Made by a program: the position numbers and the translations under genes. Below the pieces are notes generated by a model that saw nothing but the letters and a program-made list of their open reading frames with translations, did not search any database and was not told the origin of the DNA. A stretch of 46,548 nt of DNA from Clostridia bacterium (GTDB lineage Bacteria; Bacillota; Clostridia; Oscillospirales; CAG-272): assembly GCA_017453285.1 (NCBI GenBank), contig JAFTKL010000027.1:1-46548 (forward strand), written 5' to 3'. Shown here piece after piece: positions 1-46,548 of the stretch; position 1 is the first letter of the stretch, and each line of letters starts with the position of its first letter.

Positions 1-52
1 AGATATTGGTCGGGATAAAGATAATATGGCATAATCAGACGCGCGCCGAACC

Positions 53-260
53 TTTTTTGACGGGGTAGTCAAAAAAAGGCGAGGTAGTGGCTTGACCACG
101 AACCGAGGGATCTACAAAAAGATTATATGTAACCCAACACGACACAATATGTTACTTTTAAGCCAAAAGGACCATATAGATCCACGTAGATCCCGAAAAT
201 TGTCTTGACAATTTTCGCTTTTGGATTTATTCGCTATATTACCGCTCACAAATCCAAAAG
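53..260. repeat. Cluster of short perfect hairpins and inverted repeats in non-coding DNA
   Basis: ttttttgac/gtcaaaaaa (53-76); gggatctac (107-115) vs gtagatccc (186-194); gaaaattgtc/gacaattttc (195-216); cttttggattt/aaatccaaaag (218-260). Confidence 0.6.
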
Positions 261-331
261 TTCGACGCGCAACTTCGTTGCTTGCTCAGGATGACACGCT
301 TAAGGGGCTTTTGCGAGAACCCCGAACAAAC

Positions 332-565
332 GGGCGAACACAGTTCGCCCCTACGGACGAGATAAAGATTTTTTGTTTTATCGCATACGGAAGTTCATTT
401 TTAACCGTTACGACCTTGGACCGCCGGGGACGTCGGTCTCTACAGATTTTTATAGAATTTTTTTGTTTAATCGACAGACCAAACAAAGATATAAATCAAA
501 CAACGGGAGGAGCAAGCCCCTCCCCTACCGTCAGAGATAAGAAACCGAGGTCTTTTCTACAGACC
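332..565 (-). repeat. Array of GTAG-tagged REP-like palindromic units (array A)
   Basis: GC-rich imperfect palindromes are each followed on the + strand by CTAC, which is a GTAG head on the - strand: 332-354, 418-443, 505-528 and 549-565. They share agagataa-type tails. A conserved block acggaagttcatttttaaccg (387-407) recurs at 41678 and 41888. Confidence 0.65.
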
Positions 566-578
566 AAACAGAGATTTT

Positions 579-807
579 TATCTCACTCTTCACAATCAAA
601 AATCAAAGAAACACGCGGTAGCGAGCTGTCCGCGTGTTTCCACTTCGCATTTAAACAGAAGTGCCGTCTGTTATGTTGCTACCCTCACAAACATCCCAAA
701 CTTCGATCGAGGTAGGCATAACGATTACGCACTTACCCTACACCAACACCACAGGAAGTTCTTTTGGTTCTTTTCTTTCAAGAAAAGAACAAGAAACTCG
801 CATCCCC
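579..807 (-). ncRNA. Conserved ~225-nt structured element, copy A (candidate 3'-UTR-derived or independent small RNA, or a miniature mobile element)
   Basis: Begins (ggggatgcg on the - strand) 10 nt after the spoVAE stop codon. It has an internal hairpin at 768-789 and conserved blocks ccaaaagaac and gtttgggat. It ends in a GC-rich hairpin (608-640) followed by a T-tract on the - strand, then the conserved attgtgaagagtga. Homologous copies lie at 42144-42368 and 45825-46047. Confidence 0.45.
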
Positions 808-816
808 GCGTCCCAT

Positions 817-1170
817 CTACTTTCTTCTCCCTTTGAACACGAGAGACGCCAGAAAGCCGAAGCAGAGTGCCGCGGTCGTGCCGATGGCTGCGGCTGAGAG
901 AGGTCCTGCGAGCGCGCCGAGGAGTCCTTTTTCGTCGACCGACTCGCGCACGCCCTTTGATATCAGATACCCAAATCCCGTCAGCGGTGTCAGCGCGCCC
1001 GCACCCGCGATATATACCAACCGTTCGTAGACCCCGATCGCGCCGAGAAATACTCCCACGACCACGTATGCGACGAGTATCCGCGCAGGCGACAGTTTGG
1101 TTTTATCAAGCAATATCTGCGCCACCACGCAGAGCGCGCCTCCGACCACAAACGCCCAGATATAATTCAT
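817..1170 (-). CDS. spoVAE: Stage V sporulation protein AE (SpoVAEB-type, 117 aa membrane protein)
   Basis: ORF translation MNYIWAFVVGGALCVVAQILLD...AGAGALTPLTGFG matches the SpoVAE family pattern. Its start overlaps the spoVAD stop by 4 nt (1167-1170). Confidence 0.85.
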   Translation of the reverse strand: MNYIWAFVVGGALCVVAQILLDKTKLSPARILVAYVVVGVFLGAIGVYERLVYIAGAGALTPLTGFGYLISKGVRESVDEKGLLGALAGPLSAAAIGTTAALCFGFLASLVFKGRRK

Positions 1171-20236: not shown

Positions 20237-20405
20237 CGAATACCGCCTGCCATCCTTTCGGCAGGCGGTGTTTATTTATGGACAATAAGTAAATTTAAAG
20301 TAAAATTCAAAATATACTTGCAAAAATTGCTCAAATGCGATATAATATAGTGATAGAGATCAATTTTGTGCAGGAGCGTATGCTTTTGCTAAGAAAGGGG
20401 AGACT

Positions 20406-23069: not shown

Positions 23070-23219
23070 TTTTTCTCCTTTGGTGTAGAAGTGCTGTGTG
23101 CTTTATCTTTACTTATTATAGCGTATCAGCGCGGAAAAGTAAAGATATTATGCAAAAATAGTGAAAAAGTAAAGAAAAAAGCACACCGCGAGAGTGTGCT
23201 TGGCACTCCCAGCGAGAAG

Positions 23220-23661
23220 TTCGCCGTTGGCGAATATTTTTGCTCGCAGCTCCCTCGAGCGAGCTCAGGTCGCTTTGCTCGCAAAATGCGAACCCAATCT
23301 CGCGCGATGCGCGAGGAGAAGGTTTTCGTGAGGATGGCAAAAGGGGAGAGTCGCGAAGGGAATTTCGCCGTTGGCGAATATTTTTGCTCGCAGCTCCCTT
23401 GAGCGAGCTCAGGTCGCTTTGCTCGCAAAATGCGAACCCAATCTCGCGCGGTGCGCGAGGAGAAGGTTTTCGTGGGGATGTCAAAAAGGGAGAGCCGCAA
23501 CGGGAATTTCGCCGTTGGCGAATATACCCGCGTCCTTCGCCTGACAAGCGAGCTTGTCGATCTACGGACGGGGTATGCGAACCCAATCTCGCGCGATGCG
23601 CGAGGATGGGTTCTCTGTGCGGGTGCCAAAAGGGGAGAGTCGCTTCGCGACTCTCCCCTTT
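23220..23661 (-). repeat. Tandem repeat, about 3 units of 144 bp, immediately downstream of tRNA-Arg(CCT)
   Basis: ttcgccgttggcgaata recurs at 23220, 23364 and 23508, giving a 144-nt period. Units 1 and 2 are near-identical and unit 3 has diverged. The unit junctions copy the tRNA 3' end (ccgcaacgggaat, 23495-23507 vs 23668-23680) and the left half of the tRNA terminator. Confidence 0.85.
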
Positions 23662-23662
23662 T
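23627..23662 (-). terminator. Intrinsic terminator of tRNA-Arg(CCT)
   Basis: aaaaggggagagtcgc-ttcg-gcgactctcccctttt is a perfect hairpin directly after the CCA end. Confidence 0.8.
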
Positions 23663-23736
23663 GGCACCCGCAACGGGAATCGAACCCATAACTACCCCTT
23701 AGGAGGGGGTTATTATATCCATTTAACTATGCAGGC
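23662..23736 (-). tRNA. tRNA-Arg (anticodon CCT), 75 nt, CCA encoded
   Basis: Manual cloverleaf. Acceptor is GCCTGCA/TGCGGGT with two G-U pairs. D arm is GTTA-AATGGATA-TAAT. Anticodon arm is ACCCC-CTCCTAA-GGGGT. T arm is ATGGG-TTCGATT-CCCGT, followed by G73 and CCA. Confidence 0.7.
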
Positions 23737-38374: not shown

Positions 38375-38415
38375 TATAAAAACAAAAAACAGACGGCATA
38401 TACCGTCTGTTTTTA

Positions 38416-38436
38416 TGGCACGGCGTAAGGGATTCG
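38416..38436 (-). repeat. Exact 21-nt copy of the 3' end of tRNA-Arg(ACG), with a copy of its terminator alongside
   Basis: tggcacggcgtaagggattcg at 38416-38436 equals 38599-38619. The flanking hairpins cagacgg..ccgtctg (38390-38410) and ccagacag..ctgtctgg (38571-38592) are also paralogous. Confidence 0.8.
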
Positions 38437-38598
38437 TTCTTGATTTTTGCTCGATGTTTCGGATTTGATCAAGGTAACATCTCGCAAAAATCTTTGGTCA
38501 CCGTTCACAAAACAACTCACAGGGTTGTTTTGTTCACTGCGTTAGAACCCCTCTTGTTGAAATAAAAAACCAGACAGTAGATACTGTCTGGTTTTTTA

Positions 38599-38675
38599 TG
38601 GCACGGCGTAAGGGATTCGAACCCCCGACCTTTTGGTTCGTAGCCAAACACTCTATCCAGCTGAGCTAACGCCGC
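38599..38675 (-). tRNA. tRNA-Arg (anticodon ACG), 77 nt, CCA encoded
   Basis: Manual cloverleaf. Acceptor is GCGGCGT/ACGCCGT. D arm is GCTC-AGCTGGATA-GAGT. Anticodon arm is TTTGG-CTACGAA-CCAAA. T arm is GGGGG-TTCGAAT-CCCTT. It closely resembles Firmicute Arg-ACG tRNAs. Confidence 0.85.
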
Positions 38676-39585: not shown

Positions 39586-40143
39586 ATGGAAGACAAAAGA
39601 ATAGTGGATCTCTATTGGATGCGCTCCGAGAGTGCGATCAGCGAGACCGACAAGAAATACGGCAAATATTGCCGCTACATAGCCGAGCGCATACTCGAGA
39701 GCGAGGAGGACGCGCACGAGGTGCAGAATGACACCTATCTTCAAGTATGGAACACCGTGCCGCCAAATCGCCCCGATCCGCTCAAACCGTATGTAGGCGC
39801 GATCAGCCGAAATCTCTCGCTCAATCGCTACGAGGCGAAACACGCGCAGAAGCGAGAAGGAGTGCTTGGTGAGGCACTCGAGGAGCTGTCCGAGTGTATT
39901 GCGCAGAAAGATGACATCCCTACCGAGCGTGAAGAGCGACTTGGCGAGCTTCTCGATAGCTTCCTTGCGACACTTCCCAAGCGCACGAGAAGGGTATTTC
40001 TGCGCAGATATTGGTACGCGAGCAGTATAGAGGAGATCGCAAAGGACTACGGAATGAGCGAGAACCACGTGACCGTAATGCTTTGCAGAACCAGAAAAGC
40101 TCTGGCAGATATCTTGCAAAAGGAGGGATTTCTCAATGAATGA
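39586..40143 (+). CDS. RNA polymerase sigma factor, sigma-70 family (ECF-like), paralog 2
   Basis: MEDKRIVDLYWMRSESAISETDKKYG...EVQNDTYLQVW (region 2) and IAKDYGMSENHVTVMLCRTRKAL (region 4). Confidence 0.85.
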   Translation: MEDKRIVDLYWMRSESAISETDKKYGKYCRYIAERILESEEDAHEVQNDTYLQVWNTVPPNRPDPLKPYVGAISRNLSLNRYEAKHAQKREGVLGEALEELSECIAQKDDIPTEREERLGELLDSFLATLPKRTRRVFLRRYWYASSIEEIAKDYGMSENHVTVMLCRTRKALADILQKEGFLNE

Positions 40144-41617
40144 AAAGGATATTTTGAGGGCTCTGGGCGGCGTAAGTCCGGAATTTATAGCCGATGCCGC
40201 ACCGAAAGAAAAGCTCAGACATAGAAACCCGATGCTCTTTCGCCTTATAGCCGCGCTGATCTCGGTGGCGATACTTATGGGCGCGCTCTTCGCGGCGATC
40301 GTAGTGCCCAAAATAGTAAACGAGATGTTCGTCCCCACGCCGTCGCCCTACGGCAGATACGTGCTCTCGCTTGCAAAGTACCCAGAGATGATGCAGATGC
40401 CGAAGAGAGAGGATTATGCGAGCTACAGTGAATATTCTGATGCCAAATACGATTGGCAACGAGCAACGGCAAAGCAATCCGGGTCAGGCTTGAATGGAGA
40501 GTCTGTTGCTAAGCTTTATCCGTTCTTCTCTGATTTTACAAGTGAAGCTTTGAAGACGGATAAAGACGAAAATCTGGTCGTTTCGCCGCTTACAATGTAT
40601 ATGCTTCTTTCTATGCTCGGAGAGATGACCGACGGAGAGACGCGAGAGCAGATATTTGACGTTCTGAACATTTCGACAATCGAGGAACTGCGCACTCTGG
40701 CGAGTGGAGTATGGAATAGTACGTATTGTGATAACGGTGGCTTTAAATCTGTACTTGCTAACTCGGTATGGTTGGATGAGAGCATCAGATTTAACAGAAA
40801 CGTTGCACATACTTTGTCTGAAATCTATTATGCTTCGTCATTTGAGGGCGATTTTTCCAAGAAGAAATACGTTAGTGAATACTGCAATTGGATGAATGAG
40901 AATACGGGAAATCTGTTTGGATTCTCTCCGGAAAATGCGTCCGTTGACGATCAAACCTTGATGAGCATTGTCAGCACGCTGTATTTTGAATCCGCATGGA
41001 GAGATGATAACTCCTTTAACTCAAATAACAACTACAACGATGTTTTCCATACGAATTCGGGTGACGTTGAAGTAACCTATATGAAGAGAATGATCGAACG
41101 TCATCTTTTTGGTTCGGAATACTTTTATGCGACATATCTTGAGCTTGGTAGCGACGGAAAAATGTGGATCTTTCTTCCCGATGAAGAAGACACTGTTGAG
41201 GACGTGTTGTCAAGTAAAGATTTTATGAACTTGGTAACCAAAGGAAACGGTGTTGAATGCAAGGAATATGAAATTACGCTATCCCTGCCAAAGTTTGATA
41301 TTACTTCACATGACAGCGCAGAAAAATATCTTGAAAGACTTGGAATAACCGATATCTTCGGCGCAAATGCTGACTTTTCACCCGTGACAGACAGTAATGT
41401 GGCTGTAGGAGAAATTCTGCAGGGAGCGCGCCTGAAAATAGACGAGGAAGGTGTTGTGGGCGGAGCGTATAGTGAAGCGGTGATTTATTACGGCGAACCA
41501 CTACCCCTTCAAAAGAATATCGATTTAGTAGTAAACCGTCCGTTTGTCGTTGCTATTACAACACGCGCAAACCTGCCGCTCTTTATCGGCGTCGTCAACG
41601 ATCCCACCAAAAATTGA
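40136..41617 (+). CDS. Single-pass membrane protein: anti-sigma-like N-terminus fused to an extracytoplasmic serpin domain
   Basis: 8-nt overlap with the sigma gene. It carries the shared N-motif DILRALGGVSPEFIADAAP and one TM helix. Serpin hallmarks occur in order: NLVVSPLTMYMLLSMLGEMTDGETREQI, NWMNENTGNLF, LPKFDI, LGITDIF, hinge KIDEEGVVGGAYS, NRPFVVAI. Confidence 0.8.
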   Translation: MNEKDILRALGGVSPEFIADAAPKEKLRHRNPMLFRLIAALISVAILMGALFAAIVVPKIVNEMFVPTPSPYGRYVLSLAKYPEMMQMPKREDYASYSEYSDAKYDWQRATAKQSGSGLNGESVAKLYPFFSDFTSEALKTDKDENLVVSPLTMYMLLSMLGEMTDGETREQIFDVLNISTIEELRTLASGVWNSTYCDNGGFKSVLANSVWLDESIRFNRNVAHTLSEIYYASSFEGDFSKKKYVSEYCNWMNENTGNLFGFSPENASVDDQTLMSIVSTLYFESAWRDDNSFNSNNNYNDVFHTNSGDVEVTYMKRMIERHLFGSEYFYATYLELGSDGKMWIFLPDEEDTVEDVLSSKDFMNLVTKGNGVECKEYEITLSLPKFDITSHDSAEKYLERLGITDIFGANADFSPVTDSNVAVGEILQGARLKIDEEGVVGGAYSEAVIYYGEPLPLQKNIDLVVNRPFVVAITTRANLPLFIGVVNDPTKN

Positions 41618-41631
41618 TATATTATCAAGAG

Positions 41632-41663
41632 ACCGCCTGCCGAGTTTTCGGCAGGCGGTTTTG
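41632..41663 (+). terminator. Intrinsic terminator; the identical sequence recurs at 45587
   Basis: accgcctgccgagttttcggcaggcggtttt. Confidence 0.85.
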
Positions 41664-41675
41664 TATTTGATGGAT

Positions 41676-42110
41676 GGACGGAAGTTCATTTTTAACCGAT
41701 ACGACATTGGACAGTCGAGGACGCCTGTCCCTACAAACAAGAGAGATAATCGCCGCGCGTTCGTCATTCAACACAACAACCTATTTCTATCTTGGCGGTA
41801 GGGGCGACCTGTGGTCGCCCGCTTTGAAACAAAAGTTACTTTGTGTCATACAACGGGCGAGATAGATGTTTTTTCTTTGGATTACAGACGGAAGTTCATT
41901 TTTTAACCGTAATGACTATTATCACCTCTCAGTCTGCATACAACTTCGTATCGAGTTTGCTTTGCAAACATCGGCAGACAGCTCTCCTCGAGGAGAGCCT
42001 TTAAGTATCATTGTTTTACGTTTTTTAGGACCGTCGGCAACTTGTTGCGCAACAAGTTGCGCAACAAGTTGCAGGGACGCACGGTCCCTACAATCAGAGA
42101 GATAATCCCC
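41676..42110. repeat. Array of GTAG-tagged REP-like palindromes and other hairpins (array B)
   Basis: Units at 41709-41734 (..cctgtcc-ctac), 41798-41820 (gtag-gggcgacc tgt ggtcgccc, opposite orientation) and 42028-42091 (ggaccgt...acggtcc-ctac). The block acggaagttcattttt(t)aaccg occurs at 41678 and 41888. Palindromes gtttgc/gcaaac and gctctcctcgaggagagc are also present. Confidence 0.65.
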
Positions 42111-42143
42111 ACGGTTTCGGTGGTCGACGGAACGTAAAATCTA

Positions 42144-42368
42144 TATCTCACTCTTCATAATAAAAAGAAACACGCGGTAGGTTGTCTGTCCGCGTGTTTC
42201 TACATCGCTATTAAATTAAACTCAGAAAGGGAATATCGTTATAGGTTACAGTATCCCAAACTTTCGTAGGGAATATCGTTACGAGTTATAACAAAACCCT
42301 TGACCAACCTCCATTCAAGTTCTTTGGCTCCACCTTTCTCGAAAGAAAGGTGGAAAAAACGCATCCCC
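42144..42368 (-). ncRNA. Conserved ~225-nt structured element, copy B
   Basis: Starts (ggggatgcg) 10 nt after the GH25 stop. Hairpin ccacctttc-tcgaaa-gaaaggtgg lies at 42330-42353. It carries the conserved ccaaagaacttgaa and gtttgggatactgtaa blocks. The terminator hairpin at 42167-42200 is followed by ttttt on the - strand, then attatgaagagtga. Confidence 0.45.
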
Positions 42369-42378
42369 AAAACTAACC

Positions 42379-43656
42379 TCAGAACCCGTTGAGTCCCCAT
42401 TTGATCATTATTTCTTTATAATTCTTGTATGCGTAGTTGAGGTCGAAAGAGCAGTTAAAGCCGTCGATCTTGCCCTCCTCGGAGTATTGCCACATACCGA
42501 GCTGCTTGCCGTACTTCTGCTCGTTCCAGGTCGGCTTTTCGGTGAGCGGGTAGCGCGCGTACCACACGTCGTAGAGCGTGAATATCTTCGCGCCGTCGAG
42601 GATGTAGGTCAGCCAATTGTGGTTGGAATAGAGCCCCGCATAGTAGCCCTCGGACTGAAGAAGCGTGATAAAACGCTCGCACATCTCGCTAAGGTAGTTC
42701 TTGCCGAGAGCCTCAAGTGAGGCATCCTCAAGGTCGAGATATATCGGGTACTCGAACTTCTTGCCCTCAAGATAGGAAAGCAGATCGCGCGCGTCCTTCT
42801 CGATGCCCTCAAGCGTGGTCGCATAGGTGTAGAAATAAACTCCGATCTCCAGTCCCGCGGCGCGCGCGCCCTCGTAGTCCATCTCAAATGTCGGCTCAAG
42901 TCCGCTCTTGGTGCTGCCTGCCTTCAGGATCACAAAATCAACACCCGAGTCGGCGATCTTCTTCCAATCGAGCGGCAGATAGTTGTCCTCTGTGTCGGTG
43001 CCGTGGTTCCAACGCGACACATCAATGCCGCTTGCCACCACCTCGGAGCTGCCCACGTAGGCATTCTCGAGAATGTCACTGTAGTAGACGTAATCGGCGG
43101 TGTAGGAAAACGAGCACTCGCAGACGTAGGTCGTGCATCCCGGCGTCGTCGCGGTCGGGCGCGTGGTGGTCACTTCAAAGCTGTGACCGAGTGAGTCGAT
43201 ATAGTCGGACGTGTATTCGTAGTCACACGCGCGGCAGGTGTAGTGCGTAAATCCCTCGGTCGTGCAGGTCGGTTCGGTTACTTCCTTTGCGAAGCTGTGC
43301 CCGTAGGGAGTCAGAAAATCCGAGTCGTACGCGTAGCCGCAGGCGCATTCGTAGTGCGTGTAGCCCTGAGCGGTGCAGGTGGGCGGATAGATAGACATAG
43401 TCGGCTTGTGCAGAGAGCAGGGAAGATCGCGCTCTACAACCTTGCCGCACTTCTTGCACGCGCTTTCCTCGGTTCCGAGGCGGTTGCACTCGGGCTCGAG
43501 CACCGTCTGCCACTCGCCAAACTCGTGCGCGCAGGGCAGACTCTCCTTTGGTATCTCAACATCGCCGTCGGGAGTATTGCTGCCGTCCGACGAGCAGGAG
43601 AGAAGAGAGAGCAAAAGAATAATGATAAATCCAAAAATAAATATTCTGGTCTTCAA
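42379..43656 (-). CDS. GH25 muramidase lipoprotein with N-terminal Cys-rich repeats
   Basis: TTG start with RBS ggagga and a lipobox (LSLLSC). There are about 4 Cys-rich modules. The GH25 signature is GIDVSRWNH...LDWKKIADSGVDFVILKAG...YFY...DLE...WQYS. Confidence 0.8.
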   Translation of the reverse strand: MKTRIFIFGFIIILLLSLLSCSSDGSNTPDGDVEIPKESLPCAHEFGEWQTVLEPECNRLGTEESACKKCGKVVERDLPCSLHKPTMSIYPPTCTAQGYTHYECACGYAYDSDFLTPYGHSFAKEVTEPTCTTEGFTHYTCRACDYEYTSDYIDSLGHSFEVTTTRPTATTPGCTTYVCECSFSYTADYVYYSDILENAYVGSSEVVASGIDVSRWNHGTDTEDNYLPLDWKKIADSGVDFVILKAGSTKSGLEPTFEMDYEGARAAGLEIGVYFYTYATTLEGIEKDARDLLSYLEGKKFEYPIYLDLEDASLEALGKNYLSEMCERFITLLQSEGYYAGLYSNHNWLTYILDGAKIFTLYDVWYARYPLTEKPTWNEQKYGKQLGMWQYSEEGKIDGFNCSFDLNYAYKNYKEIMIKWGLNGF

Positions 43657-43925: not shown

Positions 43926-44480
43926 ATGGATGATAAGCAAATTGTAGAACTCTTTTGGGAACGTTCCGAGGATGCAATTGCCGAGACCGATAGAAAATAC
44001 GGCAGATATATTTTGTTCATAGCCCAAAACGTGCTTTCTGATGACGAGGACGCACGCGAGGTGCAGAATGACACCTATCTGCGCACTTGGGATAGCATTC
44101 CGCCCGAGCGACCGACTGCGCTGAGAGCCTACGTCGGCGCAATATGCCGAAATCTTGCGCTCAGCAGATACAGAAGAAAATATGCGGAGAAACGCCAAGG
44201 TTGCGTGGATACCGCGATCGACGAGCTTGCCGACTGCCTGCCCGACGGGAATGACGGCGACCGCGTTGCAAGCGAGAGGATAGGTGATGCGCTCAACAGA
44301 TTTTTAGAGGGGCTTGAGCCGAACGAGAGAAAGGTGATCGTGCTGAGGTATTGGTATATGTGCAGTATCGACCGCATCGCCGAGGAATGCTCGATGAACA
44401 AAAACACCGTCGCAACGGTGCTTTTCAGAAAAAGACGAGAGCTTAAAGCTTTCTTAGAAAAAGAGGGGGTAAACGTATGA
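43926..44480 (+). CDS. RNA polymerase sigma factor, sigma-70 family (ECF-like), paralog 3
   Basis: MDDKQIVELFWERSEDAIAETDRKYG...EVQNDTYLRTW and IAEECSMNKNTVATVLFRKRREL. Confidence 0.85.
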   Translation: MDDKQIVELFWERSEDAIAETDRKYGRYILFIAQNVLSDDEDAREVQNDTYLRTWDSIPPERPTALRAYVGAICRNLALSRYRRKYAEKRQGCVDTAIDELADCLPDGNDGDRVASERIGDALNRFLEGLEPNERKVIVLRYWYMCSIDRIAEECSMNKNTVATVLFRKRRELKAFLEKEGVNV

Positions 44481-45532
44481 AGAAAGAAGATATTTTCAAT
44501 GCCTTTGAAGAGCTTGACCCGAAGTTTATAGAGGAGGCAGCGCCGAAGATGAATAAAGTAAAAAAGAACACCTTTGTTTTGCGCATCGCCGCAGTTGCCG
44601 CGTGTGTCGCCCTGCTCGTAAGTGTCGTAGTGGTAAGCACGCTTATGCTTAACCGAGAGGATGAGGATCCACCCGACGTGCCGAGTGAGACGATCACGCC
44701 CGACGAAAAGGCAGAGTACATTATGTATATTGATGTCGGTATGGATGCAAATGCTCCTCCTTTGGAGACTGATAAATTCACCGTAAAAACGGATTCAGCA
44801 GAAGAACTGGACCTTTCGTGTTTGAATAGAATAGAGAAAGAAAGCGTGGAAAATACTACAAATCAAATATCACTTGATTTGTTAAATAACCATTGGAAAC
44901 TAGAATACAATAGGACATTCGAAAGAGGTCTTTATCATAGCGACAATTTTTCACATCTCGGTACCTATGATGAATATGTCTCAGATGATGCAGTGGTATA
45001 TATCAATAAAATCAATGGAGAACTGATGTTTTTATCAGACAAGGAAATCGATAGAACAGCAGAAGGTGATTTCAGCATAGAAGAAGGCAAACAAGCGGCG
45101 AAAGAGATACTTGCTATTCTGTATGGCGAAGAAGTTCTTGAATATTATGGAGAACCAATATTTAGCGATACAGTTTTGGAGAATAATCTCAGTCTTGGAC
45201 AGGAAGTCTTGATTAAAGTTGTTTATGAAAAGGCAGCCTTAGGGTACAGAACCGACGATAGAATTACCGTTAAATTCAATAGAGAAGGAAAGTTGGTTTC
45301 TATCAATGCTATGAAACGGAATACTATGACGCGTGTAGAAGAAGATATTACCAAGGAACAGACTGACAAAGCATTGAATGTGTTGAAGCAGCAATTTCCG
45401 AATGATAAAATAGAATCAGCAATAATATCTGTTGCCGCTGATGGAAAATATTATATAACAACTACTGTTATAAGATATCTTTCAATGCATCCTGTACGTT
45501 ACCCGCTGAAGTTAGCGATGAATATACAGTAA
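44477..45532 (+). CDS. Single-pass membrane protein, putative anti-sigma partner (module 3) with an unrecognised ectodomain
   Basis: ATGA overlap with the sigma gene, N-motif DIFNAFEELDPKFIEEAAP and a TM helix (IAAVAACVALLVSVVVVSTLML). The ~270-aa ectodomain is encoded by much more AT-rich DNA. Confidence 0.75.
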   Translation: MKKEDIFNAFEELDPKFIEEAAPKMNKVKKNTFVLRIAAVAACVALLVSVVVVSTLMLNREDEDPPDVPSETITPDEKAEYIMYIDVGMDANAPPLETDKFTVKTDSAEELDLSCLNRIEKESVENTTNQISLDLLNNHWKLEYNRTFERGLYHSDNFSHLGTYDEYVSDDAVVYINKINGELMFLSDKEIDRTAEGDFSIEEGKQAAKEILAILYGEEVLEYYGEPIFSDTVLENNLSLGQEVLIKVVYEKAALGYRTDDRITVKFNREGKLVSINAMKRNTMTRVEEDITKEQTDKALNVLKQQFPNDKIESAIISVAADGKYYITTTVIRYLSMHPVRYPLKLAMNIQ

Positions 45533-45586
45533 ACGTATTGCATACTCAAGCGTACGTTTGTGCGCTTGAGTATTATAATCTAACCA

Positions 45587-45618
45587 ACCGCCTGCCGAGT
45601 TTTCGGCAGGCGGTTTTT
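45587..45618 (+). terminator. Intrinsic terminator, identical to the one at 41632
   Basis: accgcctgccgagttttcggcaggcggttttt, preceded by a second hairpin atactcaagcg..cgcttgagtat (45543-45574). Confidence 0.85.
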
Positions 45619-45824
45619 GTGCGCTTATCGTTAAATACATCTTCACTTGTTATCCGCTTTTTCTTTTGACTCATAAGGTGCAAAAGAAAAAGCTACCAAA
45701 AAGAAAACACCGAAAAGGGTGTTTCGCTCGTTGCGACGAGCGACCGACGTTTCGCCGTCGGCACACGACAAACTTTTGAAAAAGTTTGATCAAAACTTTC
45801 CTGCGGCGCACCCCATGAGGTTTA

Positions 45825-46047
45825 GATGTCACTCTTCACAATAAAATAGCAACCCGTGGTAGCCTGCTGTCCACGGGTTGCTTCCTCGCATTGATACTAA
45901 ATCACACAGCGAGAATATCGCTTTGGTTTACAGTATCCCAAACATCTTTAGAGAATATCGGCTAGAGTCACGTACAAACTCTATAACAACCCTCATTCAA
46001 GTTCTTTTGGTTCTTTTCTCCGAAAGAAAAGAACGAAAATCGCATCC
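45825..46047 (-). ncRNA. Conserved ~225-nt structured element, copy C
   Basis: ggatgcg follows the partial GH25 stop codon directly. Hairpin ttcttttc..gaaaagaa lies at 46011-46033. The terminator hairpin gcaacccgtgg..ccacgggttgc (45849-45881) is followed by a T-rich tract on the - strand, then attgtgaagagtga. Confidence 0.45.
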
Positions 46048-46548
46048 TCAAAATCCATTCAAATTCCACTTTTGCATTATTTCCTTATAATCCTTATACG
46101 CATAGTTGAGGTCAAAGCTGCCCTCGAGCCCGTCGATCTCGCCGCTTTCGGTGTACTGCCACATTCCGAGCTGCTTGCCGTACTTTTCTTCATTCCAGGT
46201 CGGCTTCTCGGAGAGTGGGTAGCGCGCGTACCAAAGGTCAAAGAGCGTGACTATCCGCGCAGTATCGAGGATCGTCGTCAGCCAGGTGTGGTTGGTGTAG
46301 AGCCCCGCGTAGTAGCCGTTCTCCTGCAGAGTGCAGAGAAAGGTTTCACACATCGCGCTGAGATTATTCTTGCCGAGGGAAGAGAGCGAAGGATCCTCGA
46401 GGTCGAGATATATCGGATATTCAAATTTCTTTCCTTTTATATAAGAGAGCAGGTCGCGTGCGTCCTTCTCGATTCCCTCAAGCGTGGTCGAATAGGTGTA
46501 AAAATACGCGCCGACCTCGAGCCCCGCCGCGCGTGCGCCCTCGTAGTC
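46048..46548 (-). CDS. GH25 muramidase, C-terminal part (5' end lies outside the window)
   Basis: The frame is open to the window edge. The translation (..YFYTYSTTLEGIEKDARDLL..MWQYTESGEIDGLEGSFDLNYAYKDYKEIMQKWNLNGF) is colinear with the C-terminal third of 42379..43656. Confidence 0.8.
   Translation of the reverse strand, partial: DYEGARAAGLEVGAYFYTYSTTLEGIEKDARDLLSYIKGKKFEYPIYLDLEDPSLSSLGKNNLSAMCETFLCTLQENGYYAGLYTNHTWLTTILDTARIVTLFDLWYARYPLSEKPTWNEEKYGKQLGMWQYTESGEIDGLEGSFDLNYAYKDYKEIMQKWNLNGF

What the first reader, a model, noticed from the sequence alone, without database searches (positions are those of the whole stretch)
42144..42368. Unassigned ~225-nt structured element (copy B) filling the space between a stop codon and an intrinsic terminator
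Read on the - strand, the element starts with GGGGATGCG 10 nt after the GH25 stop. Next comes a hairpin (ccacctttc/gaaaggtgg), then the conserved single-stranded blocks CCAAAGAACTTGAA and GTTTGGGATACTGTAA. The second block is flanked by a direct repeat, aacgatattccc, occurring twice. The element ends in a strong hairpin (gaaacacgcgg/ccgcgtgtttc) plus TTTTT, and the conserved box ATTRTGAAGAGTGA lies just past the T-tract. There is no ATG on the + strand, and the only short - strand ORF is not conserved between copies. Three copies exist in 46 kb (579-807, 42144-42368, 45825-46047). I cannot match it to any RNA family I know. It could be a 3'-UTR-derived or stand-alone sRNA, a cis-acting mRNA stability or localisation element, or a miniature mobile element. 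The mobile-element idea fits because conservation extends beyond the terminator.
Basis: seen in the sequence. Interest (0 to 1): 0.7.

Follow-up and report, generated by a model that had tools for sequence, protein, structure and literature searches.

The report
Mosaic intergenic repeat ending in terminator
The ~230-base non-coding element found after three genes of an uncultured rumen Clostridia genome is real, but it is best read as a patchwork of small dispersed repeat modules ending in a transcription terminator, like the pneumococcal BOX/SPRITE or enterobacterial REP/BIME repeats, and not as a new regulatory RNA.

Summary
Three co-oriented copies lie on the minus strand (575-808, 42144-42368, 45821-46048). 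They are 61-70% identical pairwise, and each starts 0-10 nt after a stop codon. No Rfam family matches and no ORF is conserved.

I recovered four more nucleotide copies from related ruminant-gut assemblies. Translated traces in spurious ORFs point to about six more.

The copies are mosaics of modules that occur in different combinations:
- a 5' hairpin plus a CAAAAGAACTT tail
- a G-rich/pyrimidine-rich centre with an internal duplication
- a terminator hairpin, U-tract and post-terminator box

The 5' module also occurs alone, in both orientations, including a 42-nt identical stretch in a GC-rich prophage-like contig. Orthologous sites in relatives are either empty (simple terminators, 42-52 nt spacers) or hold a decayed copy.

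Only the two terminal hairpins show compensatory changes. The proposed central helices do no better than shuffled controls. No terminal inverted repeats, target-site duplications, promoter or nearby transposase were found.

Best reading: a lineage-specific BOX/SPRITE/BIME-like interspersed repeat, co-transcribed as 3' UTR, that supplies the upstream gene's intrinsic terminator. A functional 3'-UTR RNA is not excluded. Interest is modest; this is a new member of a known kind.

The parts
42144..42368 (-). Copy B of the composite repeat, as given in the finding
   Evidence: nhmmer E = 2e-67. It lies between the GH25-B stop codon (42379-42381) and further intergenic repeats. GC is 40%, against 49.8% for the window.
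42330..42353 (-). Module 1 hairpin P1 of copy B (ccacctttct-ttcg-agaaaggtgg)
   Evidence: Folds as a perfect hairpin, 12 bp as folded, -17.1 kcal/mol. The outer stem differs from GTTCTTTTCT/AGAAAAGAAC of copies A, C, L145 and L150 by four paired double changes.
42314..42327 (-). Tail of module 1, CCAAAGAACTTGAA. The core AAGAACTT is invariant in all 7 nucleotide copies.
   Evidence: Invariant columns.
42269..42280 (-). Direct repeat R1 (aacgatattccc), the pyrimidine-rich arm of the central module
   Evidence: The L128 copy has lost the segment between R1 and R2.
42246..42261 (-). Central block GTTTGGGATACTGTAA
   Evidence: GTTTGGGAT is exact in A, B and C and in L150. It is GGGCT in L145 and L133 and is deleted in L128.
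42229..42240 (-). Direct repeat R2 (aacgatattccc)
42162..42200 (-). Module 3: terminator-like hairpin (11-12 bp stem, internal loop, 2-3 bp inner stem) plus TTTTT
   Evidence: -19.2 kcal/mol. All pair cells are paired across 7 copies. Four pairs carry compensatory double changes, and 0/500 shuffles reach that value.
42148..42161 (-). Post-terminator box ATTATGAAGAGTGA
   Evidence: TGAAGAGTGA is exact only in the three copies within the window. It is kept in L145, differs by one base in L150, and is only partly kept in L133 and L128.
575..808 (-). Copy A, starting 9 nt after the spoVAEB stop codon (817-819). P1 is at 767-790, the terminator hairpin at 608-640 and the box at 583-596.
   Evidence: An orthologous copy is present in L145.
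45821..46048 (-). Copy C, abutting the GH25-C stop codon (46048-46050). P1 is at 46010-46034, the terminator hairpin at 45849-45881 and the box at 45829-45842.
   Evidence: Three compensatory changes in the terminator stem come from this copy.
42379..43656 (-). GH25 muramidase lipoprotein gene B. The element forms its 3' UTR.
   Evidence: Pfam PF01183, E = 2e-27.
817..1170 (-). spoVAEB, last gene of the spoVA operon. Copy A forms its 3' UTR.
   Evidence: Pfam PF03862, E = 4e-32.

Best explanation
The element is one arrangement of a lineage-specific family of interspersed, modular intergenic repeats in uncultured ruminant-gut Clostridia (Oscillospiraceae/Ruminococcaceae-like).

It is built from at least three modules:
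1. A ~45-nt hairpin with a CAAAAGAACTT tail.
2. A G-rich/pyrimidine-rich centre carrying an internal imperfect duplication.
3. A long GC-rich hairpin with a U-tract and a short conserved box after it.

It sits just 3' of a stop codon and is co-oriented with the upstream gene, so it is transcribed as 3' UTR. Inferred: module 3 acts as that gene's intrinsic terminator, and the hairpins may protect the 3' end.

Shown:
- It is multi-copy.
- Copies are mosaics.
- Modules occur separately.
- It is present or absent at orthologous sites.
- A copy can decay without loss of the flanking gene.

Inferred: it spreads and is reshuffled at the DNA level, by recombination between copies or by an unidentified mobilising enzyme. 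The terminator part is what the host keeps.
For: Multi-copy family:
- Three copies lie in the window.
- Four further nucleotide copies were found in related assemblies: L145, L128/L129, L133 and L150.
- Seven spurious-ORF representatives contain translated pieces of the element. One of them is L150, which leaves about six additional copies.
- Copies tend to sit near contig ends.

Mosaicism:
- L133 and L150 combine A-like and B/C-like segments.
- L145, the positional ortholog of A, has a B/C-like centre.
- L133 and P0252 replace module 1 with a different 5' segment.

Modules occurring alone:
- Module 1 sits after an adh_short gene in L147.
- Three module-1 copies occur in the prophage-like contig L153. 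One is 100% identical over 42 nt. They occur in both orientations relative to the genes.

Presence/absence at orthologous sites:
- The GH25-C ortholog in L135 is 96% identical over the 166 C-terminal residues, yet has a 44-nt spacer with a plain bidirectional terminator.
- L134 has a 42-nt spacer.
- The GH25 gene beside the serpin in L128 has a 52-nt spacer.
- The spoVAEB 3' region in relatives L146-L149 has no element.

Decay: the syntenic ortholog of copy B in L128 has lost the 39 nt between the direct repeats and the GGATGCG start, and has a mismatch in P1. It keeps a perfect terminator hairpin.

Terminator:
- The hairpin has an 11-12 bp GC-rich stem and folds at -19 to -26 kcal/mol. A U-rich tract follows only on the sense strand.
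- All pair cells are paired and 4 pairs covary.
- In copy B, the simple terminator scan found no other terminator on that strand between the element and the serpin gene's terminator.

Composition: the element is AT-rich, 40-44% GC against 49.8% for the window and 55-58% for the two neighbouring genes measured, GH25-B and spoVAD.

Precedent: pneumococcal BOX is modular, and SPRITE is a terminator-like repeat enriched close to 3' ends of CDSs and between convergent genes (PMC3049150).
Against: - No terminal inverted repeats or target-site duplications were seen, and no transposase lies in the window. The mode of spread is therefore unknown.
- In all five loci where the upstream gene is known, the element is co-oriented and starts within about 25 nt of the stop codon. 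That regularity could also reflect an RNA-level function.
- Module 1 and module 3 are 85-95% identical between the window and L145. Four-fold codon sites between the same two genomes are only 46-48% identical. These parts are therefore constrained or homogenised, not neutral junk.
- The total copy number per genome is unknown.
- The GTDB representative scan found only chance hits and the JGI metagenome scan found one copy. The family may be small.
- Terminator activity has not been tested. A simple consensus scan did not call the hairpin, because its loop exceeds the scan's 8-nt limit.
Confidence: 0.62

Rival explanations
1. It is a functional structured RNA. It could be a cis-acting 3'-UTR element (stability, localisation or protein binding) or a 3'-UTR-derived sRNA family. 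In that case the invariant unpaired blocks AAGAACUU and GUUUGGGAU would be the recognition or seed sequences, and the copies would serve sporulation and cell-wall genes (the spoVA operon and GH25 muramidases).
For: - Orientation is fixed and the element starts 0-25 nt after the stop codon in all five loci with a known upstream gene.
- AAGAACTT is invariant in 7 of 7 copies.
- The hairpins carry compensatory changes.
- Module 1 and module 3 are far more conserved than synonymous sites between species.
- Folding energies are significantly low: z = -1.9 to -5.5 on the sense strand.
Against: - The central helices show no covariation beyond shuffles (251/500), and copy A folds its centre differently.
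- The antisense strand folds as significantly as the sense strand.
- Orthologous sites in close relatives lack the element or carry a decayed copy.
- Module 1, with its AAGAACTT tail, occurs in the opposite orientation relative to transcription in L153.
- Conservation continues past the U-tract into sequence that a terminated RNA would not contain.
- No shared promoter lies upstream.
Confidence: 0.17
2. It is an actively transposing non-autonomous element, either MITE-like or an IS200/IS605/RAYT-type single-strand element. It would be mobilised in trans, recognised through its two subterminal hairpins, and would insert just downstream of genes.
For: - There are subterminal hairpins at both ends whose structure, not sequence, is conserved.
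- Orthologous sites are filled in some genomes and empty in others.
- Co-oriented 'GTAG + hairpin' REP-like units lie directly downstream of copies A, B, L145, L133 and L150. REP and REPIN elements are mobilised by RAYT transposases (PMC3116915 and PMC3337134).
- A 42-nt stretch of module 1 is identical in an unrelated GC-rich prophage-like contig.
Against: - No terminal inverted repeats and no target-site duplication were seen at the A/B boundaries.
- The two hairpins are unrelated in sequence.
- Filled sites differ from empty sites by about 500-700 nt of mixed repeats or by replaced segments, not by a clean 225-nt insertion.
- No transposase or RAYT gene was seen in the window or in the related loci fetched.
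- Few copies were detectable in public collections.
Confidence: 0.15
3. There is no repeat family. The similarity is only a by-product of the local GH25 segmental duplication, and the region is ordinary 3' UTR.
For: B and C follow paralogous GH25 genes whose last 300 nt are 74% identical. B and C are 70% identical over the element.
Against: - Copy A and L145 follow spoVAEB, which is unrelated to GH25.
- L133 and L150 have other flanks.
- The GH25-C ortholog in L135 lacks the element.
Confidence: 0.02
4. It encodes a small protein.
For: Copy B has a 43/53-aa ORF on the minus strand.
Against: - The frame and stop positions are not conserved. The ORFs are 21 aa in A and 25/33 aa in C, with frame-shifting indels.
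- The hairpin carries compensatory changes.
- There is no ATG on the + strand.
Confidence: 0.01

Closest known systems
[quoted passage not shown] 2011, PMC3049150)
   Same: Both are interspersed, AT-rich, non-coding repeats whose core is a long stem followed by a U-rich tract. Both lie close to the 3' ends of CDSs, often between convergent genes, and are plausibly co-opted as terminators. For both, the mobility mechanism and target-site duplications are unresolved.
   Different: There is no sequence relationship and the host is in a different class. This element is longer (~230 nt). It carries two extra upstream modules and a conserved box beyond the U-tract. Its copy number is unknown.
BOX elements of pneumococcus and BOX-type repeats of S. 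suis (modular boxA-boxB-boxC)
   Same: Both are composite repeats made of ~45-60-nt modules that occur in different permutations. Both are predicted to fold into stem-loops when transcribed, and both vary between strains.
   Different: BOX has terminal inverted repeats and causes target-site duplications. Neither was seen here. BOX lacks a terminator module.
REP/BIME clusters and REPINs with RAYT transposases (E. coli, Pseudomonas; PMC3116915, PMC3337134)
   Same: Both form mosaic clusters of short palindromic units in 3' intergenic regions. Here, 'GTAG + hairpin' units directly follow the element. In E. coli, transcribed hairpins of this kind can stabilise upstream mRNA (established knowledge, not tested here).
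   Different: The element itself is not a simple GTAG palindrome pair. No RAYT gene was seen. REP/REPIN systems are described mainly in Proteobacteria.
ERIC/IRU and Correia (CREE) elements, which are transcribed MITE-like repeats
   Same: All are 100-250-nt intergenic repeats that are co-transcribed with flanking genes and form RNA hairpins (from my own knowledge).
   Different: ERIC and Correia elements are long imperfect palindromes with terminal inverted repeats, and Correia makes TA duplications. This element is not an overall palindrome and has no terminal inverted repeats.
3'-UTR-derived sRNAs that share the terminator of the parent mRNA
   Same: The position matches: from the stop codon to the intrinsic terminator. 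There are also conserved, possibly unpaired blocks.
   Different: Such sRNAs are normally single-locus and conserved with their parent gene. This element is multi-locus and mosaic, and it is absent or decayed at orthologous sites.

Membership tests
Any Rfam 15 family | Score at or above the family's gathering threshold with its covariance model | tested here: not met
   The whole window at gathering thresholds gives only two tRNAs. The region 41800-42500 at E <= 10 gives a best hit of E = 0.35 (a plant miRNA model, 20 bits against a 75-bit threshold, and located outside the element). Within the element, matches have E of about 4-10.
Interspersed intergenic repeat (BOX/SPRITE/REP-BIME kind) | Multiple non-coding copies at unrelated loci within a genome or lineage | tested here: met
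   Copies follow spoVAEB and GH25 genes and occur with other flanks. There are 7 nucleotide copies, plus 7 spurious-ORF representatives, one of which is L150. The copy number per complete genome is not known.
Interspersed intergenic repeat (BOX/SPRITE/REP-BIME kind) | Presence/absence polymorphism at orthologous sites | tested here: met
   Empty sites are seen in L135, L134, beside the L128 serpin gene, and in L146-L149. L128 holds a decayed copy.
BOX-type modular repeat | Built from sub-modules that occur in different permutations or alone | tested here: met
   Module 1 occurs alone in L147 and L153. L133 and P0252 carry an alternative 5' module. L133, L145 and L150 have mosaic centres.
BOX-type modular repeat / MITE | Terminal inverted repeats and target-site duplication | tested here: not met
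   The element ends share no reverse-complement similarity. No duplicated flank is visible at copies A and B. Filled and empty sites differ by complex segments.
SPRITE-like terminator repeat | Long stem plus U-rich tract, close to the 3' end of a co-oriented CDS | tested here: met
   The stem is 11-12 bp with an inner stem, folds at -19 to -26 kcal/mol and is followed by a U-rich tail. The element starts 0-25 nt after the stop codon in five loci. Termination activity itself was not tested.
REP/REPIN-RAYT system | GTAG-flanked palindromes, and a RAYT (Y1 transposase) gene in the genome | tested here: inconclusive
   GTAG + hairpin units lie downstream of the element and form an inverted pair in L153. 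The element is not itself such a unit. No RAYT gene was seen in about 200 kb of window and related loci, but the whole genome is not available.
Structured ncRNA family (riboswitch or sRNA-like) | One conserved secondary structure supported by covariation across the whole element | tested here: not met
   The terminator hairpin covaries, and P1 has compensated stem variants. The central helices P2/P2a reach 82.6% paired, against 82.1% in shuffles (251/500), with no excess covariation. Per-copy minimum-free-energy folds of the centre disagree.
Stand-alone sRNA gene | Own promoter conserved upstream of each copy | tested here: not met
   No sigma-70-like site lies in or before copies A and B. The sites in or before C are no more than shuffles give. 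Upstream sequences are unrelated coding regions. Alternative sigma-factor promoters are not covered by the scan.

The most novel reading that the evidence does not exclude
The element is a previously undescribed class of functional 3'-UTR RNA cassette in sporulating gut Clostridia. In this reading a mobile unit installs, immediately after stop codons and in a fixed orientation, a protective 5' hairpin, conserved unpaired AAGAACUU and GUUUGGGAU recognition motifs, and a strong terminator. The host would use the cassette to control the stability or fate of sporulation and cell-wall mRNAs (the spoVA operon and GH25 muramidases).
Probability: 0.12. Interest if true: 0.6.

Novelty: new member of a known kind. 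Interest (0 to 1): 0.3.

Why it matters
If the reading is right, the element adds an example from uncultured rumen Clostridia to the short list of modular, terminator-bearing interspersed repeats such as BOX, SPRITE and REP/BIME. These are poorly catalogued outside a few model pathogens.

It matters in practice in three ways:
- Such repeats break metagenome assemblies. Copies here sit near contig ends.
- They seed spurious ORF calls. At least 15 representative 'proteins' in public databases are translations of this repeat region.
- They mark sites of rearrangement and cassette replacement around the ECF-sigma/GH25 loci.

It would matter more if the fixed position just after stop codons and the invariant motifs turn out to reflect an RNA-level function.

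Tried and rejected
- **Rfam** was searched at gathering and permissive thresholds. Nothing credible was found.
- **GTDB representative genomes** were scanned with GGATGCG..AAAGAACTT..GTTTGGGAT. The only two hits were chance matches, in a gammaproteobacterium and in Parabacteroides.
- **JGI metagenomes** were scanned with the terminator stem. One real copy was found, L133.
- **Viral contigs** were scanned with two-block patterns. The hits were chance only, and the profile matched none of them. The terminator pattern gave 0 hits.
- **Plasmids and phages** were searched with blastn. No match.
- **A synthetic six-frame 'protein' query**, intended to fish out spurious ORFs, scored nothing. That search was wasted.
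- **Small-protein reading:** rejected, because frames are not conserved.
- **Integron attC, IS200/IS605 ends, group II intron, retron, and DGR template or variable repeat:** considered from memory and rejected. I found no R'/R'' core sites, no similar left and right hairpins, no Rfam intron hit, and no RT, integrase or transposase nearby.
- **AAGAACTT as an ECF-sigma -35 element:** considered, but no CGT-type -10 element lies at the right spacing.
- **The post-terminator box as a Rex or cre operator:** only a half-site resemblance.
- **Long-range pairing of the 5' GGGGAUG with R2, and of AGGG with R1:** attractive when comparing B with C, but not kept in A, L150 or L133.
- **P2/P2a helices:** these failed the shuffle control.
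- **Strand asymmetry of folding:** none was found.

Full report
**Observation**

- The GH25 stop codon is at 42381-42379.
- GGGGATGCG lies 10 nt later, at 42368-42360.
- A perfect hairpin is at 42353-42330.
- CCAAAGAACTTGAA is at 42327-42314.
- The direct repeat aacgatattccc is at 42280-42269 and 42240-42229, flanking GTTTGGGATACTGTAA at 42261-42246.
- The hairpin gaaacacgcgg/ccgcgtgtttc is at 42200-42167, followed by TTTTT.
- The box ATTATGAAGAGTGA is at 42161-42148.

Copies A (575-808) and C (45821-46048) align with B at 78% mean column identity. A profile built from the three copies scores each of them at E = 1e-65 to 1e-68 and finds nothing else in the window. There is no ATG on the + strand of copy B. 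The short minus-strand ORFs differ in frame and length between copies. Rfam gives only two tRNAs for the window and no credible weak hit in the region.

**Context**

The window is ordinary chromosome of a spore-forming Clostridia. It carries SpoVAD/SpoVAEB, TruB, TrmB, YchF, an ABC transporter, three ECF sigma genes, a serpin and GH25 muramidases. There is no transposase, integrase or RT.

Identical sequence occurs in ENA ruminant-gut assemblies. Named homologues are Ruminococcaceae, Oscillospiraceae or Clostridia MAGs.

Copy A starts 9 nt after the spoVAEB stop codon. Copies B and C follow paralogous GH25 lipoprotein genes, each transcribed divergently from an ECF sigma/anti-sigma pair. The element is AT-rich: 40-44% GC, against 49.8% for the window and 55-58% for the two neighbouring genes measured.

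**More copies elsewhere**

Pattern scans found little:
- The GTDB species representatives gave only two chance hits.
- The JGI metagenomes gave one real copy, L133.
- Viral contigs, plasmids and phages gave no whole element.

Walking through homologues of the flanking proteins was more productive:
- L145, a relative with SpoVAD 88-89% identical, has a copy after spoVAEB.
- L128/L129, whose GH25 is 86% identical and whose sigma/anti-sigma pair is syntenic, has a copy after the GH25-B ortholog.

A phmmer search used the spurious + strand ORF that overlaps copy A and its downstream region. It hit 15 cluster representatives. Seven of these contain translated pieces of the element itself, in sense or antisense. 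One of them gave L150, a seventh nucleotide copy. The family is therefore multi-copy but confined, as far as can be seen, to a narrow lineage. Pairwise identity among the seven nucleotide copies is 60-78%.

**Mosaic and modular nature**

The copies are not variants of one linear sequence.
- L145, the positional ortholog of A, has a B/C-like centre.
- L133 and L150 join A-like and B/C-like segments.
- L133 and P0252 have a different 5' segment in place of the first hairpin.
- L128 has lost the 39 nt between the two direct repeats, has lost the GGATGCG start and carries a mismatch in the first hairpin. It keeps a perfect terminator hairpin.

Module 1 (the hairpin plus the CAAAAGAACTT tail) also occurs on its own.
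- It follows an adh_short gene in L147.
- It occurs three times in a GC-rich prophage-like contig, L153. One of these is 100% identical to copy A over 42 nt. Another has a third compensated stem variant (CCAGCTTTCTT/AAGAAAGCTGG). They occur in both orientations relative to the genes.

Downstream of copies A, B, L145, L133 and L150 lie co-oriented 'GTAG + hairpin' REP-like units and other shared motifs. The 320 nt downstream of A and the corresponding stretch of L150 are 87% identical, and A has about 190 nt of extra repeat units between.

**Presence and absence**

Several orthologous or syntenic sites in relatives are empty:
- The GH25-C ortholog in L135, 96% identical over the 166 C-terminal residues, is followed by 44 nt holding a plain bidirectional terminator.
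- The L134 GH25 is followed by 42 nt.
- The GH25 gene next to the serpin in L128 is followed by 52 nt.
- spoVAEB in relatives with SpoVAD 82-83% identical is followed by a simple hairpin and no element.

The filled sites differ from the empty ones by 500-700 nt of mixed repeats or by replaced segments. For example, the anti-sigma C-terminal domain next to copy C is different in L135. They do not differ by a clean 225-nt insertion. I saw no terminal inverted repeats or target-site duplications.

**Structure**

The terminator hairpin is fully paired in all seven copies. Four pairs carry compensatory double changes, and 0 of 500 shuffles reach that value. It folds at -19 to -26 kcal/mol and is followed by a U-rich tract on the sense strand only.

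Hairpin P1 is perfect or near-perfect in six copies. It has three compensated stem variants in all, two among those six copies and a third in an isolated module in L153.

The centre contains several G-rich segments that can pair with the two pyrimidine-rich repeats, so many alternative helices can be drawn. The best consensus helices I could define are 82.6% paired, but they are no better than column shuffles (251/500) and show no excess covariation. Per-copy minimum-free-energy folds of the centre disagree, and copy A pairs R1 with R2 instead. Folding z-scores are as strong on the antisense strand as on the sense strand.

I therefore regard the two terminal hairpins as real structures and a single conserved 225-nt fold as unsupported.

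**Constraint**

Between the window and L145, four-fold codon positions are only 46-48% identical. Module 1 and the terminator-plus-box segment are about 85-95% identical between the same two genomes, and the centre is close to the neutral level. The end modules are therefore kept, whether by selection, by exchange between copies or by recent spread. This pattern fits a repeat whose ends matter. It also fits an RNA with two functional hairpins.

**Interpretation**

The most economical reading is a lineage-specific, modular interspersed repeat of the BOX/SPRITE/REP-BIME kind. It sits in 3' intergenic DNA and is co-transcribed with the upstream gene. Its last module serves as that gene's intrinsic terminator.

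In the pneumococcus, BOX is a modular composite. SPRITE is a terminator-like repeat enriched close to 3' ends of CDSs and between convergent genes, possibly co-opted as a terminator, and with no established target-site duplication (PMC3049150). REP and REPIN units with a GTAG motif are mobilised by RAYT transposases (PMC3116915 and PMC3337134). The GTAG hairpins next to the element hint at such a system, but no RAYT gene was seen.

Steps that are shown:
- The element is multi-copy.
- Copies are mosaic and modular.
- It is present or absent at orthologous sites.
- Both hairpins carry compensatory changes.

Steps that are inferred:
- The element is transcribed as 3' UTR.
- Module 3 has terminator activity.
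- The mechanism by which it spreads.

**Rivals**

A functional 3'-UTR RNA or 3'-derived sRNA remains possible (about 0.17). This is because of the fixed orientation, the start within about 25 nt of the stop codon in all five loci with a known upstream gene, and the invariant AAGAACTT.

An actively transposing non-autonomous element is also possible (about 0.15), but it lacks the classical hallmarks.

The pure-paralogy and small-protein readings are rejected.

**Verdict**

The feature is real and correctly described. It is not in Rfam. It is best classed as a new member of a known kind, an interspersed modular intergenic repeat with a terminator. Interest is modest at 0.3. There is about a 0.12 chance that it is a genuinely new functional 3'-UTR RNA cassette.

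Noticed in passing
window 505-528, 419-443, 332-354, 42074-42091 and 41709-41735 (all on the minus strand); also L133, L145, L150 and L153:5075-5185: There are REP-like units, each a GTAG(G) motif followed by a GC-rich palindrome. They are co-oriented and clustered just downstream of the element copies. In L153 two of them form an inverted, REPIN-like pair. This suggests a RAYT-type system in these Clostridia, but no RAYT gene was seen.
   Followed up: partly
window 387-412, 41678-41703 and 41868-41893 (minus strand); twice in L133: The motif CGTAACGGTTAAAAATGAACTTCCGT is repeated. It reads like an ECF-sigma promoter (GTAAC-N17-CGT). It also shares GAACTTCC with the AAGAACTTCC block of copies A, L133 and L150. 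It lies near ECF sigma genes, but no downstream gene is evident in the window.
   Followed up: partly
window about 1-330 (minus strand), continuing in L150 1-480: A long non-coding unit downstream of copy A is itself multi-copy. Its + strand translation (...AQDDTLKGLLREPRTNGR..APTDEIKIFCFIAYG...) hits 11 representative 'proteins' at E <= 1e-10. These database entries are very likely spurious ORFs across a repeat. The window contig ends inside this unit.
   Followed up: partly
L153 4057-4101, 5003-5044 and 5203-5247; L147 7964-8006: Module 1 of the element (the hairpin plus CAAAAGAACTT) occurs alone. One instance in a GC-rich prophage-like contig carrying holin and lysin genes is 100% identical over 42 nt. 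The L153 instances occur in both orientations, some directly upstream of a ribosome-binding site and start codon.
   Followed up: partly
window 41632-41662, 45587-45617 and 20242-20272: The serpin gene and the anti-sigma gene are followed by an identical 31-nt terminator hairpin, ACCGCCTGCCGAGTTTTCGGCAGGCGGTTTT. A third copy is 84% identical. The flanks are otherwise unrelated, so terminator hairpins also seem to be shared as repeats in this genome.
   Followed up: no
window 23216-23643, next to tRNA-Arg(CCT) at 23662-23736: There are three tandem copies of a 144-nt unit (83-94% matches) directly abutting a tRNA gene. An ORF called across the array (23126-23689) is probably spurious.
   Followed up: no
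window 38410-38436 and 38593-38619: A 27-nt stretch is exactly duplicated and includes the 3' end of tRNA-Arg(ACG) at 38599-38675. This looks like an att-site remnant of an integrative element. L128 also has a partial duplicate of this tRNA 3' end.
   Followed up: no
window 39586-43656 and 43926-46548; L128, L132 and L135: Units of ECF sigma, anti-sigma and a divergently transcribed GH25 lipoprotein gene are repeated. The extracytoplasmic domain of the anti-sigma factor is swapped between close relatives (351 aa here, against 632 aa with a beta-propeller in L135). One unit has a 493-aa serpin fusion in the anti-sigma position. Gene order around the repeats is rearranged between the window and L128.
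   Followed up: partly
window 45704-45725 (minus strand): A second terminator-like hairpin lies downstream of copy C, GAAACACCCTTTTCGGTGTTTTCTTTTT. Its arms begin with the same GAAACAC as the element's terminator. This may be a coincidence or a degenerate relative.
   Followed up: no
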